Of a DNA stretch of 60,442 nt, positions 36,001 to 42,000 are shown in pieces. Position numbers: made by a program. The DNA comes from a virus. Lineage: Duplodnaviria > Heunggongvirae > Uroviricota > Caudoviricetes. The stretch lies in the IMG/VR virus record IMGVR_UViG_2660238269_000009; one strand, written 5' to 3'. How positions within the stretch are numbered: position 1 is the first letter of the stretch; every line of letters starts with the position of its first letter.

Positions 36001-39000
36001 TCCAGAAATACGTTGTGTCCCCGCAAATCCACGGTACCGCTGATGCGCTGCCTCCTGTGCTCTGTGATGCCAGACCGGCAAGCTCCGTTCTGAACTGATT
36101 CACCATCGCACTAAACAGCCCCGGATGCTGCGCATGCGTCCCCACTGCCGCATCACCTTCTCCCTGCATCCACACCACCGCAAGCAGACGGTTTTTCGGG
36201 TTCTTCGCCAGTGCGGCTTTAGTCCGGCTCACCAAATCCTGATACAGCGGCTTACCCACACCCCAGCGCAGTGAATTTTCCGATGCACCGGCTGATTCGC
36301 TGTATGTGCCGTCTGCACCCGTTGTGAATGCCGAAGCACCACGGCAGCACGGAACCAGCAGAATGCCCGCATTCGCCGGTATAAACGGCAGCAGTTTTTT
36401 GGCGATATGCAGCCCCTGCCCCACGGTTCCGTACTGCCCCTTTGACAGGTCCGCTTTCGGATGGTTAAGACGGCTCATGTCCTGCACATCATGCAGACAA
36501 TGGTCCGCCGGAATAATGTCGTTATACTTACAGGCGGCACCGCCCGGTGTCACCGTACTGCGGCGCGCCAGCTGCTTAATACGCGGGTCCGGACGGTCAT
36601 ATGTCTCCGGCAGCGGAAGGCCTTCACCATACGACATGCCGTTTGACTGCCCTGCCAGAACCACAACAAAGTAATACTCCGGGTCGCTGGTGGCGCTGAT
36701 TACTGTGCCTTCTCCATCCGACGGCTTCACCACCACAGGTGTGGTGACATCACCTTCCGCCGCAATGGCCTGCATCAGGGTATAAGGCGTGATGGCGACA
36801 GGGCTGCCAAATGGCTGCCACCCCTCCTTCAGTTTTTGAGTCAGTCGCTCCGCAAGGTCTGACGGCGACGCCGCCCTGACCACATCGTAGTGTTTAAATG
36901 CCATGGTTCTTTCCACCATATTAAAAACAATTCTTTAAAATACCTGACATGCAATACAGAAAAAAAACACAAAACCATACCTTAAATGAAAACCTCATCA
37001 TAAAGCAGGTATGCATGGATAAACCACATCAGAAAAATAATTCTGCTCTATGGTTTACATTCAAAATTATCATTTATACTTTTCAGAACATCACCAGCAC
37101 AGCATAAATAAGGAGGCTAAATGAAGTGGATTGTGATTGATACAGTTATCCAGCCATCATGCGGAATATCTTTTTCAGCCATATGGAGTAAAATAAAATT
37201 AATAATCTGGTATCAATCGGATGTTTTCTTACCTCCTGAAAGTATATTTACGTTGACTCACACAGGTATCGTACTTAATAACAAAGTGCTACCTGTAACC
37301 ATTTACAACGTTGTACCATTCAATAAAAGATTCTGGGATTTAATCAAAAACAGCCAGGAATGTCCTGCAAATTCAGATAACGTATTGAAAGAATGCTTTA
37401 ATAATCATTGCATTCTGCAAATATGCCCTTACGGACTAAAACAACAGTGTCCATAATTAGTTTACTCATATCTTACAAAATTCATATAAAAGCCCCTCCG
37501 GAGAGGGGCTAAAGCCGCGTATCTGTATCATCATGCGCATGATGCCGGGTGCCTCCCGGTGAGTTCAGCCCGGTGCCACCAAACCCGCGCGTTTACTTTC
37601 CTGGGTATCAAAGATAACACCTAATGCACCAGTCGCCCCTCCGCTCAGGGGGATTCACCATGCCTGTTTCTTTTAACAAACTCCCCGCAAAACAGACAAC
37701 TGTCAACCGTCTGAATTGTGAGACATTTAAAATTTTCGGGGCATGACTGATACCCGGCTAACTACCTGGCATGTCCTTTTTCACCAAAGGAAAAAGCACC
37801 ACCACAATACCGACCACCAGCACTCCATCCGCCAGCACCGACATGATCCTGCTGGTGAAATCCACCATCACCACCAGAAACAGCAGGAGTGCCACAGCGG
37901 CCAGACGCAGTTTTACCGTCACAGGTGGTTCTCCAGTCGCAGGCCAAGAACACCAGCAATCTCTTCCAGAACCTTACGCTCTTCCGGCTCAATTTCACCA
38001 TCTGCTTCAGCAATGGCCACCGCCACATCCAGCACATCTTCCGCTTCACGCGTATCGTGTTTCACATCTTCAATTTCACGCAACGCCGCTCGACGACCAA
38101 TTTTAAAGTTGGTGTCAAGCTGACCTGTGATCGTGGCACTGATGGCATTAATTTCTGACGTAAACGCGGACAACGCAGGCTGGTTACGTAATACCTGTTC
38201 GATCTTCGCTTTCTCTGAAGCCTCACATTCACCATCTGCATAGGCCACCAGATAGGCAGCATTAATAACCGCCTGTGCCAGATCACGTTTCTCAAACTTT
38301 TTAATTTCCGCTGCCGCTCTGCGGGTTTTCTTTTTGAAAATACCAAACATCGTGACGTTCCTTTGGGTGGGTGAGCCAACGCCCGGGAGCGATCTGCCCA
38401 CAGAGAAAGTCACACTGACCACTCCGTAAGCTCCCCCCGAAAGGCTCTGTGGTTGATATGCGCCGGGCGTGGCGCGGAAATAAAAAAGGCTCGCAGTAGC
38501 GAGCCCCAGAAACAACAAAAATACAGTGAAAACTAAAGAGGGCCGCAGAGCAACCCTTTTTTAGTTAAAATAGATGGTAAAAAACGATTCCAGTGAATTT
38601 ATTTACACTTATTGTCAGAAAAAAGGGAAACCACCGATTCCTGACTGATCATTTCTTCTTCGCTCACCCTGGTAATTGCAACTAAATCCTGAAGAGGCAG
38701 ACCAAAAACATCCAACAATTCTTTTTTCAAAAGAATTCCATTCTCATGCAATAAGTTGATTAACTTATAGATGAATTGTGGCTCCTCTTTTGCAATCACA
38801 TCATCAAGAGGCTCACGGCGACGATATGGTGCTAATTGCCTAAAGACATAACTTTTTTGATTCTCTGTCATAAGGCTTAACGAATAAGCTCGATGCGTCA
38901 TACAGGCCAAAGAAACTAACCATCTCTCCTTCAGTCTTTTGAGTGCAGATATATTGGGAGAGTAATATTCCCTTCCAAAGGTTTGAGCTGGAAGCAAAAA

Positions 39001-42000
39001 ACAACCAGCAAAGTAATCAGCTTGTTTCTCTACCTTGTCAAAAAGCGCCTTATCGTTCAAATAATCATCTGAGACTGAGCGATGCATTATAAGATGCCCC
39101 AATTCGTGAGCTAGGCTAAACCTTAATCTAACTGCCGTCTTGGATCTATCGGTAATGATTATGGGCCTCTCATTATCCCAAAATGAAAATGCATCAACCT
39201 TATCACCAGAGAATAGATTTGCTATAACTATACCTTTATTTTCAAGCAAACGAGTCAAATTAGGTATAGGTCCATCCCCTAATTTCCAAGCTCTTCGGGT
39301 CTGCATAGCGATATCTTCAATGTCTGATTCATCCAAAACCTCAAAATCCGGAATATCAATTTCCGGTAAAATAACATCAGGAAGTTGCACATATTTACTG
39401 CATTCCCTGAGAATTAAAGGAATCCAACGTCCCTTTGCACGACCGCTGATTCTTTCTTTTTTGTCGCTGTGCTCCTGCTTCTAAAATGAACAGCCCCTTC
39501 AATAAATGGAGATCCAGAAGAAGAAATAAAAAACCGTTCCGGAAATCCTAAAATATGTGCAATTTGGGTAAGCGTCTCTGGTGAAGGTTTTTTTAACCCC
39601 TTCTCGAAAGATGATATTGCCTGTCGAGAGATATCAAGAACCCGAGCCAACTCTGCCATGGTTAATCCTTTTGCCTCTCGAGCTTCAGTGAGTCGTGTCG
39701 GATTAATACAGCGCTCATGGTTAATAAAAGATATCGCTTTCATGTTCATTATGAGTTTTGTCTAATATGTTGCTCAGTGAGGAGCTTAAACTTATTATCA
39801 AGCTCATCATCAACCTTCTCAGCCTCAACTTGGTAAGGGGACAGAATCGCAAGTTTTTCAGTATAAATGATCCCATCATTACTTGAGTTAGGGATGGTGA
39901 GGTTAAGAACAGATAAAGACTGTTTTTCTCCGGCATGCATAAGATATACATGACCACCTTCAAAATCTGTTACTTCCACACTAACATCATTAAACAAATC
40001 GTAATTGTTTGAAGAATATACAGAGCGATATTTGGCTTGTCGTGGTAATGGTCCTTTGCCATCAAGATGATGGGCTGTTAAAGACCAATTATTTGAACGG
40101 ATCGTAGGGTGCACGCAATTTTTTGCAGCATTAGAGGCAATTTCAACATGCATCTTCATGCTACGAGCTGTTTTTTCCATAAAAGCATCGACGTAAAACC
40201 AGCGAAGATATGCCTGAGCCTGACGCCAAAAAGAACCAAACTCTTTCGCACCTTGATGGGAAAGCATATATGCCTGCGCTAACGACTTTGACAATTCTTG
40301 ACGACAAGCAGAATCGAAAGCTGCCGACAATTGTTCTGAATATCTTTTGAACATTTTTTCTCAATACAGTGATTGTTGGTGTCAACTGATTTTACGTTTT
40401 TCATTAACTTTGTCAACCAGAATTGACAACCATCTTATTTTGATATGTGCCGGGTGTGGCGCGGATACAAAAAAGGCCGCCAATAGCGACCTCAGTTACG
40501 GGATTATTCTGGGGTTAAACGACTGTTACTCCCCCCAGACAAAATCATCACTTCCTGTTCGATGCGAGCCATAGTGAACCTCGTACTTATCTCCCATCTT
40601 TCTTGCTTCCGTTTCTGCGTCTTCCTCTGTCGCAAAAACCCCAACAAGATGCCAGGGCGAGCTTCTTACCACAGCCCAACCTTTAACCCATCCTTTGTTG
40701 TCCTTATCTTCCATTAACACTTCAGAAACAAACATATTTATCTCCTTGTGGGTACCCAGAGATATTTTATGATTGCTCCCGGTCAGATCAATAAAGTGGC
40801 TTCAATTTTGCCTTAATGATCAAATCAGGGTGATTGACGGAATCGTACACCACCTCAATATTTTCATCCGTGGCGTCGATAAGATATTCTTTTACATAAG
40901 GACCTGTTGATTTTCCATGAAATACATCTTCAACAAGTACACTCTCCCCCTGAACAACACGAAAACTAACTTCTGTTTCGAACGGACCAATCGTCACCAT
41001 CAGTTTTTTCACATAGCCTCCTGATAAGCACTCGATTTATTAGTTAATGGTGTAACGCTGATACAAAAAAGGCCCGCAAAAGCGAGCCTGGTAAATAAAT
41101 ATGGCGCGTTGTACTGGATTCGAACCAGTGACCGATTGCTTAGAAGGCAATTGCTCTGTCCGGCTGAGCTAACAACGCTGAATACCGATAATGGACCGCC
41201 ATCGAGGACTCGAACCCCGCGCAACCAGCTTCGAAGGCTGACGCTCTATCCCGATGAGCTAATGGCGGTATGTGATATGGTGGCCCTTGCTGGATTTGAA
41301 CCAGCGACCTGGCGATTATGAGTCGCTCGCTCTCACCACTGAGCTAAAGGGCCGGGTGCAGGATAATAACGGTACGTAACTAATCCTGCAATATCATCCG
41401 TTCTGACTGGCTAAATCCTGAACTTCCCTGACCGTCTGCTCAAAACGTTCAGTCTCCAGCTCAACGCCAGTTGCACGACGCCCCAGCGCCATCGCGGCTT
41501 TGACTGTCGAACCCGACCCCATGAAAAAATCTGCAACCAGGTCCCCCGGACGACTGCTCGCGCTGATTATCTGCTGCAGCATTTCTGCCGGTTTTTCGCA
41601 CGGATGTTTCCCGGGATAGTACTGCACCGGTTTATGCGTCCACACATCGGTGTACGGCACCTGCGCCGTCACGCCAAAATACCGCCGCAGATGCTTATAT
41701 TCACTCTGCAGTTCCGCATACTGCCGGTTCAGTGAAGTATACGTCTCCAGCAGCTGGTGGTGGGGCTTCTCCAGTTCACCCCGCTGATGCTTCTCTTCTG
41801 CCACCCGGGCAAACAGCGCCTGTAATTTCAGATAATCACTTTCGTTCGGCAGTTGCCACTGACTGGCACTGAACCAGTGCGACACCATGTTTTTCTTTCC
41901 TGTGGCATCCACAATCTGTTTTGCCGTTATCCCCAGGGCAGCGCGTGCATCACGAAAGTAAGCAATCAGCGGGGCCATCACATGCTGTTTCAGTGCCCTG

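What the first reader, a model, noticed from the sequence alone, without database searches (positions are those of the whole stretch)
38599..40430. Self-contained promoter/operator - unknown 201-aa gene - XRE HTH - ImmA/IrrE peptidase operon in the late-region cargo slot
A sigma70-like promoter whose -35 lies inside a perfect 20-bp palindrome (TTGTCAATTCTGGTTGACAA) precedes three overlapping genes: a 201-aa protein with no recognisable family, an XRE-type HTH regulator, and an ImmA/IrrE zinc peptidase with intact HEXXH. The unit ends in its own terminator. HTH plus ImmA pairs are known derepression switches of mobile elements and defence islands; here the pair sits behind an unknown candidate effector. 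The ImmA frame stays open upstream across the HTH gene end, and an A6/T6 run lies in the overlap, so the two may be one fused gene split by a frameshift.
Basis: partly seen in the sequence, partly recalled or inferred. Interest (0 to 1): 0.7.

Follow-up and report, generated by a model that had tools for sequence, protein, structure and literature searches.

The report
RosmerTA defence cassette, antitoxin gene mis-split
This is an ordinary copy of the known RosmerTA toxin-antitoxin anti-phage system carried by a lambda-like prophage in the place where Shiga-toxin phages carry stx, and the apparent split of its regulator/peptidase gene into two genes is almost certainly a one-base homopolymer error in the assembly.

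Summary
The features are real and lie on the minus strand: a strong sigma-70-like promoter, a 201-aa gene, an XRE HTH ORF, an M78/ImmA ORF with HELGH, and a terminator.

The 201-aa protein is not family-less. It matches PADLOC RmrT models and PHROG 35814. The two downstream ORFs are the N- and C-terminal parts of one RmrA protein.

Eleven near-identical E. coli loci (10 assemblies) and eight diverged relatives all encode a fused 381-383-aa RmrA. The window differs only by A7 to A6 at 39457-39462. Adding one base restores the 383-aa protein.

The window has at least seven other single-base homopolymer contractions, five of which break genes that are intact in a near-identical genome. It has no private substitutions over 12.6 kb. 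The split is therefore most likely an assembly artefact.

The "perfect 20-bp palindrome" is really two 7-bp arms around a 6-bp spacer, and its left arm is not conserved. What is conserved in eight lineages is two direct GTTGAC boxes, one at -35 and one just after -10.

The cassette sits where stx2AB sits in Stx2 phages.

Verdict: an already known system of low novelty. The biochemical target of this RmrT subfamily remains unknown; a confident model gave only weak restriction-endonuclease-like fold hits.

The parts
40473..40493 (-). Terminator-like hairpin that closes the preceding small-ORF module and insulates the cassette from upstream transcription
   Evidence: It lies inside direct-repeat copy 40440-40489.
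40410..40429 (.). Inverted repeat TTGTCAA-N6-TTGACAA. The right arm holds the -35 box. The left arm is specific to the E. coli lineage.
   Evidence: unique in the window, 0.03 expected. The left arm is not conserved in alignments A2 and A4.
40389..40416 (-). Sigma-70-like promoter: -35 TTGACA (40416..40411), 16-nt spacer, -10 TAAAAT (40394..40389)
   Evidence: 11 of 12 matches. GGTTGACAAA and G.AAA are invariant in 8 lineages.
40412..40417 (-). GTTGAC box 1, overlapping -35: candidate RmrA operator half
   Evidence: Invariant in 8 lineages; coordinates. Binding is inferred, not shown.
40381..40386 (-). GTTGAC box 2, just downstream of -10 near the predicted start site, 31 bp from box 1: candidate RmrA operator half
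   Evidence: Invariant in 8 lineages while the flanks diverge; coordinates.
39749..40354 (-). rmrT, the 201-aa putative toxin/effector of RosmerTA
   Evidence: PADLOC RmrT PDLC03933 at 2.1e-17, covering 6-193 of 201. PHROG 35814 at 9.5e-73. 85 of 88 family members hit the same RmrT model. The exact sequence is on 920 contigs.
39414..39749 (-). 5' part of rmrA (XRE HTH domain). It appears as a 111-aa ORF only because of the frameshift.
   Evidence: HTH_3 at 1.2e-15. Matches RmrA profile positions 3-96 of 384 at 3.5e-24.
39457..39462 (-). A6 run (T6 on the + strand) where one base is missing relative to the A7 of all near-identical relatives. This is the site of the apparent frameshift.
   Evidence: Adding one base in silico gives the 383-aa RmrA.
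38599..39480 (-). 3' part of rmrA (M78/ImmA-IrrE Zn-peptidase plus C-terminal domain). The frame is open from 39480 and the first start codon is GTG at 39390.
   Evidence: Peptidase_M78 at 7.2e-18. Matches RmrA profile positions 115-375 of 397 at 1.5e-73. Open frame shown.
39094..39108 (-). HELGH (HEXXH) zinc-binding/catalytic motif of the peptidase domain
38486..38507 (-). Intrinsic-terminator-like hairpin plus T-run that ends the cassette
   Evidence: It lies inside direct-repeat copy 38453-38502.
38453..38502 (.). Downstream copy of a ~50-nt terminator-containing direct repeat. The other copies are at 40440-40489 (84% identical) and 41036-41085 (66%). The first two bracket the 1987-bp RmrTA module. 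All three lie at module joints.
   Evidence: Homology to Stx2 phages ends at about 41056 and to locus L004 at about 40499.

Best explanation
The locus is a canonical RosmerTA toxin-antitoxin anti-phage system carried as an autonomous cargo cassette ('moron') of a lambdoid prophage. It sits in the Q-tRNA-to-lysis interval that Stx phages use for stx.

It has two genes, not three. rmrT encodes a 201-aa soluble protein that is the putative toxin. rmrA is translationally coupled to it (TAATG) and encodes one 383-aa protein with an N-terminal XRE HTH, an M78 (ImmA/IrrE-type) HEXXH peptidase and a C-terminal domain.

The apparent HTH/ImmA split comes from one missing base in an A7 run. It is most probably a homopolymer under-call in the assembly.

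Proposed working, inferred from the family rather than shown here:
- RmrA binds through its HTH to two conserved GTTGAC boxes that overlap -35 and the transcription start, and so auto-represses the operon in the lysogen.
- RmrA also holds RmrT inactive, probably with help from ClpXP, as in two studied relatives.
- Infection by another phage disables or titrates RmrA, frees RmrT, stops the cell and aborts the infection.
- During lytic growth of the prophage itself, Q-modified RNA polymerase would read through the flanking terminators.
For: Identity:
- PADLOC RmrT and RmrA hits. The two ORFs cover consecutive parts of one RmrA profile.
- PHROG 35814 and PHROG 2439.
- NCBIfam spr1629-family repressor/antitoxin at 3e-60, below its curated cut-off.
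- 85 of 88 family members match the RmrT model.

Fused gene:
- Eleven near-identical E. coli loci from 10 assemblies have A7 and a 381-383-aa RmrA (353 aa where the caller starts at Met31).
- Eight diverged relatives (RmrT 48-73% identical; Salmonella, Serratia, Yersinia x3, a Proteus-like contig, a metagenome contig, phage Tritos) all have RmrT overlapping a fused 381-383-aa RmrA.
- Adding one base in silico restores the 383-aa protein.

Artefact:
- Against NZ_CP027312 the window has single-base homopolymer contractions at 6805, 8180, 8453, 13457, 28325, 39457-62 and 52473. An eighth, at 38432, is shared with NZ_CP027312 and shows only against the other relatives.
- Six of these, rmrA included, break genes that are intact there.
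- Over 33751-46354 the window has no private substitution against 8 relatives, only two homopolymer contractions.
- The split products occur in only one other contig, against 920 contigs (1157 index blocks) that carry the exact RmrT.
- That contig is 4.5 Mb long and has another homopolymer contraction in the neighbouring TerB gene.

Regulation:
- The promoter matches 11 of 12 consensus positions.
- GGTTGACAAA, the -10 core and a second GTTGAC are invariant in 8 lineages with otherwise diverged flanks.

Family behaviour, from papers:
- RosmerTA defends against phages, and a delta-rmrA construct could not be transformed (10.1101/2022.05.11.491447).
- RmrA/ImmA is an antitoxin hub paired with many unrelated toxins (PMC10440598).
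- A prophage TA module later cited as a RosmerTA-type configuration makes clpP essential in E. coli E101 (10.1101/2020.05.25.114553).
- Pneumococcal RipAB, assigned to the Rosmer family, depends on ClpX (PMC12795458).

Context:
- stx2AB occupies the same interval in phage Stx2a_1447.
Against: - No reads are available, so the A6 allele cannot be proven to be an error.
- A6 appears in two assemblies whose cassettes differ by about 2%. That could also reflect a truly slippage-prone tract.
- This RmrT subfamily has not, to my knowledge, been tested for toxicity or defence. Its PADLOC score is modest (61.5 bits).
- In the related PD-lambda-2 system the Xre-peptidase protein itself is the toxic part (PMC9519451), so the toxin/antitoxin polarity here is an assumption.
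- RmrA binding to the GTTGAC boxes is inferred from conservation only. Box 1 is in any case constrained by being the -35 element.
- The RmrT fold gave no significant match, so its biochemical activity is unknown.
Confidence: 0.8

Rival explanations
1. The A6 allele is a genuine recent frameshift mutation. rmrA is a pseudogene in a decaying prophage. The cell survives because the HTH-only fragment still represses rmrT, because RmrT expression is low, or because of leaky frame restoration.
For: - A7 runs are natural slippage hot spots.
- A6 is seen in two diverged copies.
- Other genes of this prophage are also broken, and IS elements are present in related copies.
- Truncated rmrT alleles exist in dozens of E. 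coli contigs, so the system does decay in nature.
Against: - All the window's private differences in 12.6 kb are homopolymer contractions, with zero substitutions.
- Apart from 40531, where NZ_CP027312 itself is the outlier, all isolated single-base indels against NZ_CP027312 go the same way, towards a shorter run in the window. This is typical of basecalling error and not of mutation.
- rmrT is intact and identical to the common allele, while loss of rmrA is reported as not tolerated.
- The split products are absent from all but one contig, against 920 contigs that carry the same RmrT.
Confidence: 0.14
2. The split is functional. The A6 allele creates A_AAA_AAG in the HTH frame, which is the dnaX/IS911-type -1 slippery heptamer, with AGGAG 9 nt upstream. 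Programmed -1 ribosomal frameshifting (or transcriptional slippage) would then make both an HTH-only repressor and full-length RmrA, or the run would act as a phase-variable switch.
For: - The sequence is GCAGGAGCACAGCGAC-A_AAA_AAG, and a -1 shift at it enters the peptidase frame (reading-frame arithmetic on the sequence).
- A6 recurs in two copies.
- That A_AAA_AAG is an efficient slippery site in E. coli is my own knowledge of dnaX and IS911. It was not tested here.
Against: - The heptamer exists only in the rare A6 allele. The common allele is in frame with A7.
- Diverged homologues keep the Lys-Lys residues but with A3-A6 runs in an unbroken frame.
- There is no downstream stimulatory structure: the RNA fold z-score is -0.19.
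- The same assembly shows the same kind of contraction in unrelated genes.
Confidence: 0.03
3. One reading: a separate XRE repressor and a separate ImmA/IrrE anti-repressor form a DNA-damage- or infection-triggered derepression switch, as in ImmR/ImmA, DdrO/IrrE or CapH/CapP, controlling a novel effector.
For: - The domain content is the same: XRE HTH plus M78 HEXXH peptidase.
- CapP is the closest solved relative of the peptidase part (7t5t, 2.2e-05). PADLOC capH and capP give weaker hits.
- A conserved operator-like pair overlaps the promoter.
- An in-cis version, in which RmrA cleaves itself or a partner RmrA, was proposed for Rosmer-like systems in PMC10440598.
Against: - The two domains are one polypeptide in every relative examined.
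- The 'effector' is a catalogued RmrT.
- No solo HTH product is on record apart from the frameshifted copies.
Confidence: 0.03

Closest known systems
RosmerTA (RmrT/RmrA) anti-phage toxin-antitoxin system (Millman et al. 2022; PADLOC and DefenseFinder models)
   Same: - Two-gene operon, with a small toxin-like gene first.
- The partner is an XRE HTH plus M78 Zn-peptidase fusion of about 380 aa with an intact HEXXH.
- Both proteins match PADLOC RmrT and RmrA HMMs.
- Prophage-borne, like other members.
   Different: - In this window rmrA reads as two ORFs because one base is missing from an A7 run.
- This RmrT subfamily (PHROG 35814, Enterobacterales lambdoid prophages) has no published functional test that I could find.
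- It is soluble, unlike the membrane-depolarising RmrT of phage Kita.
RipAB (Spr1630/Spr1629) of Streptococcus pneumoniae, and the E101_02645/02644 prophage TA of E. coli
   Same: - The antitoxin has the same HTH plus ImmA-like architecture.
- NCBIfam's spr1629-family model aligns over residues 19-364 of RmrA (3e-60).
- The toxin comes first in the operon.
- The E. coli case is prophage-borne.
   Different: - The score is below the curated spr1629 cut-off (204 against 335 bits), so this is not that equivalog.
- RipA targets the DnaN sliding clamp. No relationship between RipA and this RmrT was found or tested.
- ClpX/ClpP dependence is unknown here.
ImmR/ImmA (ICEBs1), DdrO/IrrE (Deinococcus), CapH/CapP (CBASS regulators)
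   Same: An XRE HTH DNA-binding module combined with an M78 HEXXH metallopeptidase. These are stress- or infection-triggered switches of mobile elements and defence operons. CapP is the nearest solved structure by sequence.
   Different: In those systems the repressor and the protease are separate proteins, and the protease cleaves the repressor in trans to induce downstream genes. Here the two are fused and paired with a toxin, that is, a TA logic.
PD-lambda-2 (Vassallo et al. 2022)
   Same: An Xre-peptidase fusion encoded downstream of a toxin-like gene in an E. coli defence locus. PADLOC PD-Lambda-2_B hits the peptidase domain weakly (1.6e-06).
   Different: PD-lambda-2 has three genes (HigB-like, Xre-peptidase, P4-antitoxin-like), and the Xre-peptidase itself is the toxic part. 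Here there is no HigB-like gene and no third gene.
stx2AB moron of Stx2-converting phages
   Same: Same chromosomal slot: immediately downstream of the methylase and the ileZ-argN-argO tRNAs, and upstream of the nanS-p-like esterase and the lysis genes. The flanks are 97% identical.
   Different: The cargo is a defence TA cassette plus TerB/DUF3927 and small ORFs, not a toxin for the animal host.

Membership tests
RosmerTA | RmrA: a single protein with an N-terminal XRE HTH fused to an M78 (ImmA/IrrE) peptidase | tested here: met
   The window's two ORFs map to consecutive parts of one RmrA HMM. One added base gives a 383-aa protein identical to that of relatives. The protein is fused in all 19 relatives examined. 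As literally written in the window, the gene is interrupted.
RosmerTA | Intact HEXXH catalytic motif in RmrA | tested here: met
   HELGH at 39094-39108. Peptidase_M78 at 7.2e-18.
RosmerTA | An adjacent co-oriented gene that matches an RmrT model | tested here: met
   PDLC03933 at 2.1e-17 over residues 6-193 of 201, plus four further RmrT models. 85 of 88 family members hit PDLC03933, best 1.3e-62. Stop and start overlap as TAATG.
RosmerTA | RmrT is toxic and is neutralised by RmrA | not testable with these tools
   Inferred only from the family literature.
RosmerTA | Confers resistance to phage infection | not testable with these tools
   Shown for other members, not for this subfamily.
ImmR/ImmA-type (also CapH/CapP, DdrO/IrrE) two-protein derepression switch | The HTH repressor and the M78 protease are separate proteins | tested here: not met
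   The separation is due to one missing base. All relatives are fused.
ImmR/ImmA-type two-protein derepression switch | The protease cleaves the repressor to induce the regulated genes | not testable with these tools
   No biochemical data. An in-cis analogue is only a hypothesis.
Programmed -1 ribosomal frameshift gene (dnaX / IS911 type) | Slippery heptamer X_XXY_YYZ in the zero frame at the frame junction | tested here: met
   A_AAA_AAG is present in the A6 allele, but only as a by-product of the missing base.
Programmed -1 ribosomal frameshift gene (dnaX / IS911 type) | The two-frame organisation and the slippery site are conserved among homologues | tested here: not met
   The gene is a single frame with A7 in 11 near-identical loci, and a single frame with A3-A6 runs in diverged homologues.
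Programmed -1 ribosomal frameshift gene (dnaX / IS911 type) | A stimulatory downstream RNA structure | tested here: not met
   Fold of 39370-39500: -28.5 kcal/mol, z = -0.19 against shuffles.
PD-(D/E)xK nuclease fold (as a possible identity of RmrT) | A significant structural match and a D...(D/E)xK catalytic signature | tested here: inconclusive
   - The model is confident (pLDDT 87.4, pTM 0.82).
- Foldseek gives nothing below E = 0.1.
- The nearly invariant residues are Y29, N75, T93, R110, H140 and P155, with no acidic pair.

The most novel reading that the evidence does not exclude
The A6 allele is real. It makes rmrA a contingency locus: the A7/A6 run toggles RmrA between a full HTH-peptidase antitoxin and an HTH-only repressor, while -1 slippage on the resulting A_AAA_AAG heptamer (AGGAG 9 nt upstream) supplies a trickle of full-length protein. 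The lysogen would then survive with a differently poised, perhaps hair-trigger, RosmerTA system.
Probability: 0.04. Interest if true: 0.45.

Novelty: already known. Interest (0 to 1): 0.15.

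Why it matters
This matters mainly as a correction.
- An apparent three-gene 'unknown effector + HTH + ImmA' operon is the catalogued RosmerTA system. Its odd architecture is a one-base homopolymer error.
- The same error type breaks several other genes in this window, so other frameshift-based findings from the window should be treated with suspicion.

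Modest positive points:
- This RmrT subfamily is widespread in Enterobacterales lambdoid prophages. The exact protein is on 920 contigs. It is everywhere annotated 'hypothetical' and is biochemically uncharacterised.
- The family carries a strikingly conserved promoter with two direct GTTGAC boxes, which gives a ready operator hypothesis for RmrA.
- The cassette occupies the stx slot, flanked by terminator-containing repeats at module joints. This is a clean example of a defence gene replacing a virulence gene at one phage cargo site.

Tried and rejected
- Pfam and NCBIfam on the 201-aa protein: nothing meaningful.
- Megablast of the cassette against the phage collection: no match. tblastn found only phage Tritos, at 55%.
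- The first AlphaFold run, with a 14-sequence alignment, failed (pLDDT 41.5). It was repeated with 88 sequences and gave pLDDT 87.4.
- A profile search of RmrT against PDB sequences found nothing.
- Programmed frameshifting was considered and rejected: no conservation and no RNA structure.
- The palindrome as operator was rejected in favour of the two direct boxes, because the left arm is absent outside the E. coli lineage.
- TerB/DUF3927 as a third part of the system was rejected. They travel with RmrTA in the E. coli copies, including L004 and L012, but are absent next to the diverged RmrTA loci.
- I looked for the E101 toxin accession WP_001179380.1 among cluster members, to link this subfamily to the clpP-essentiality study. 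It was not found in the lists returned.

Full report
**1. What is in the sequence**

All the features lie on the minus strand.
- A promoter-like site, TTGACA-16 nt-TAAAAT, scores 11 of 12 consensus positions at 40416..40389. It is the only strong one in the region.
- Its -35 box is the right arm of an inverted repeat at 40410-40429. This repeat is unique in the window, with 0.03 copies expected by chance.
- The repeat is not a perfect 20-bp palindrome. It has two 7-bp arms (TTGTCAA / TTGACAA) around a non-palindromic 6-bp spacer.
- Three ORFs follow: 201 aa (40354..39749), 111 aa (39749..39414) and 263 aa (39390..38599).
  - The 111-aa ORF matches HTH_3 at 1.2e-15. Its ATG overlaps the preceding stop as TAATG.
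  - The 263-aa ORF starts at a GTG, matches Peptidase_M78 at 7.2e-18, and has HELGH at 39094-39108.
- A hairpin plus T-run at 38507..38486 ends the unit. A similar hairpin at 40493..40473 precedes it.
- The peptidase frame is open back to 39480, across the HTH stop. An A6 run (T6 on the + strand, 39457-39462) lies in the overlap.

**2. Identity**

The 201-aa protein has no Pfam or NCBIfam family, but defence and phage libraries recognise it.
- PADLOC RmrT model PDLC03933 matches at 2.1e-17 over residues 6-193, and four other RmrT models also match.
- PHROG 35814 matches at 9.5e-73.

The two downstream ORFs match consecutive parts of single RmrA models. The HTH ORF covers profile positions 3-96 of 384 (3.5e-24). 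The peptidase ORF covers 115-375 of 397 (1.5e-73). Both also fall in PHROG 2439.

A profile search found 145 cluster representatives for the 201-aa protein family. Of 88 aligned members, 85 hit the same RmrT model.

This is therefore RosmerTA. That system was named by Millman et al. as a Zn-peptidase antitoxin with a toxin of unknown function; their delta-rmrA construct could not be transformed (10.1101/2022.05.11.491447). Ernits et al. place RmrA as an ImmA-type antitoxin hub paired with many unrelated RmrT toxins (PMC10440598).

**3. The split of rmrA**

Megablast against complete E. coli genomes found the cassette in 2 of 5426 genomes at 99.9% identity. The only difference in 1921 bases is one extra T in the run (T7 against T6).

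In those genomes, and in nine further assemblies that encode the exact RmrT, the run is A7 and rmrA is one gene of 381-383 aa. The length depends on the start chosen. PGAP starts at Met31 and so gives 353 aa. Adding one base to the window in silico restores the identical 383-aa protein.

Eight diverged relatives all have RmrT overlapping a fused 381-383-aa RmrA. Their RmrT proteins are 48-73% identical to this one. They come from Salmonella, Serratia, three Yersinia, a Proteus-like contig, a metagenome contig and Escherichia phage Tritos.

**4. Artefact or biology?**

Four observations point to an assembly artefact.
- Against the near-identical prophage of NZ_CP027312, the window shows isolated single-base contractions of homopolymers at 6805, 8180, 8453, 13457, 28325, 39457-62 and 52473. 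An eighth, at 38432, is shared with NZ_CP027312 and shows only against the other relatives. At six of these sites a minus-strand gene that is intact in the reference is broken into overlapping frames. The genes are a DUF4376 protein, the tail fibre (twice), a tail assembly protein, rmrA and a replication-region HTH protein.
- Over 33751-46354, compared with eight relatives, the window has no private substitution at all. It has only two homopolymer contractions.
- The exact RmrT protein is on 920 contigs (1157 index blocks). The split products (263 aa, 81 aa) are on record in a single other contig, and the 111-aa product in none.
- That other contig (GCA_009296305.1) is 4.5 Mb long and has a different prophage context. 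It also carries an A5-to-A4 contraction in the adjacent TerB gene.

Contractions in one direction only, without substitutions, are the signature of homopolymer under-calling. I put the artefact at about 0.8 and a genuine recent frameshift at about 0.14.

**5. Programmed frameshifting**

The A6 allele happens to create A_AAA_AAG in the HTH frame, with AGGAG 9 nt upstream, and a -1 slip would enter the peptidase frame. I tested this reading and reject it.
- The heptamer exists only in the rare allele.
- Diverged homologues conserve the Lys-Lys residues, but with A3-A6 runs in one continuous frame.
- The surrounding RNA folds no better than shuffled sequence (z = -0.19).

**6. Regulation**

I aligned the upstream regions of eight lineages. 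GGTTGACAAA (the -35 box and its flanks), the -10 core (G.AAA) and a second GTTGAC immediately after the -10 are invariant, while the flanks have diverged. In the window the two GTTGAC boxes are at 40417..40412 and 40386..40381, 31 bp apart.

The conserved candidate operator is thus a pair of direct boxes, one over the -35 and one over the predicted start site. That RmrA's HTH binds them is an inference.

**7. Context**

The window is a lambdoid prophage. In NZ_CP027312 the integrase lies next to ompW. The gene order is Q, methylase, three tRNAs (41102-41353), two small ORFs, rmrT-rmrA, TerB and DUF3927, an IraM/PmrD-like gene on the other strand, a nanS-p-like esterase, holin and lysozyme.

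The methylase-tRNA segment is about 97% identical to Stx2 phages, and the homology stops near 41056. In phage Stx2a_1447, stx2A and stx2B follow the tRNAs directly and precede the esterase homologue. The cassette therefore lies in the stx slot.

Three copies of a ~50-nt terminator-containing repeat (38453-38502, 40440-40489, 41036-41085) lie at the module joints. Two of them bracket the 1987-bp RmrTA module. The breakpoints of homology to other prophages fall at these repeats.

In other genera the same RmrTA pair sits in other lambdoid slots: after Q, in the nin region, or next to cI. It does so without TerB/DUF3927, so those two genes are neighbours and not components of the system.

**8. Mechanism**

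- Shown here: domain content, gene coupling, and the conserved promoter and boxes.
- Inferred from the family: RmrA auto-represses and neutralises RmrT, and infection releases RmrT and aborts the infection.
- Two Rosmer-type systems depend on ClpX/ClpP to keep the toxin harmless. One is a prophage TA module in E. coli E101, where it makes clpP essential (10.1101/2020.05.25.114553). The other is pneumococcal RipAB, whose toxin acts on the DnaN clamp (PMC12795458).
- The polarity is not universal. In PD-lambda-2 the Xre-peptidase protein is itself the toxic part (PMC9519451).
- For RmrT, an AlphaFold model built on 88 sequences is confident (pLDDT 87.4, pTM 0.82). It shows a long helical hairpin followed by an alpha-beta-beta-beta-alpha-beta core.
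- The nearly invariant residues (Y29, N75, T93, R110, H140, P155) do not form a D...(D/E)xK signature. The activity of this RmrT remains unknown. A nuclease-like fold is a lead only.

**9. Verdict**

This is an already known system, RosmerTA, in a typical prophage cargo position. Its unusual three-ORF look is explained by a one-base homopolymer contraction that is most likely an assembly error. Interest is low (0.15).

Three things remain of some value: the conserved two-box promoter as an operator hypothesis, the uncharacterised but very common enterobacterial RmrT subfamily, and the warning that this window carries several homopolymer artefacts.

Noticed in passing
window 6805, 8180, 8453, 13457, 28325, 38432, 52473: These are single-base homopolymer contractions relative to near-identical prophages. 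Five of them break genes that are intact in NZ_CP027312: a DUF4376 protein, the tail fibre (twice), a tail assembly protein and a replication-region HTH protein. Any other 'frameshift' or 'split gene' finding from this window is suspect.
   Followed up: yes
window 38453-38502, 40440-40489, 41036-41085: Three copies (84% and 66% identical to the first) of a ~50-nt repeat that contains a terminator hairpin lie at the joints between cargo modules. Homology to Stx2 phages and to another prophage (L004) breaks at these repeats, which suggests they act as recombination joints for module shuffling.
   Followed up: partly
window 37758-38350 (minus strand): A TerB-domain gene (143 aa) overlaps a DUF3927 gene (54 aa) directly downstream of RmrTA. 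The pair accompanies RmrTA in the E. coli prophage backgrounds examined, but is absent next to diverged RmrTA loci. TerB domains occur in the Bunzi and Shango defence systems, so this could be a separate small defence or membrane module.
   Followed up: partly
window 37121-37456 (+ strand): An IraM/PmrD-family gene (111 aa) lies on the opposite strand, between the cargo genes and the nanS-p-like SASA esterase (36919..34937). In one relative (L006) an IS66 element is inserted next to it.
   Followed up: no
window 40526-41012 (minus strand): Two small ORFs without families (69 aa and 74 aa) sit between the tRNAs and RmrTA and end in their own terminator. The complete genome NZ_CP027312 has C5 here, against C6 in the window and the other relatives, which gives a 76-aa call. 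That is probably an error in that reference.
   Followed up: partly
window 23878-24632: A tandem repeat of 162 nt x 4.7 copies, 92% matching and without indels. It lies inside the large portal-annotated gene of the head region and so forms an in-frame 54-aa repeat array.
   Followed up: no
L001/L002 (NZ_CP027312, NZ_CM165887) locus 6060-7121: RefSeq/PGAP annotates rmrA from the internal Met31 (353 aa, 'helix-turn-helix domain-containing protein'). This removes the first 30 residues, including the first 9 of the HTH_3 match (residues 22-73), and leaves an 89-nt gap after rmrT. The coupled ATG (TAATG) gives 383 aa. RmrT is 'hypothetical protein' in every source.
   Followed up: yes
protein cluster of RmrT: Truncated or split RmrT variants (172-173 aa; 81 + 140 aa; 134 aa) occur on dozens of E. 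coli contigs. The toxin gene is therefore sometimes inactivated in nature, or mis-assembled.
   Followed up: no
window ~43100-43550 and relatives (L003 2812-3213): A PemK/MazF-family toxin gene lies just downstream of Q with no annotated antitoxin beside it. In other backgrounds the same interval holds HicAB and ParE-like genes (L004). This Q-proximal region is a second cargo hotspot for TA modules.
   Followed up: no
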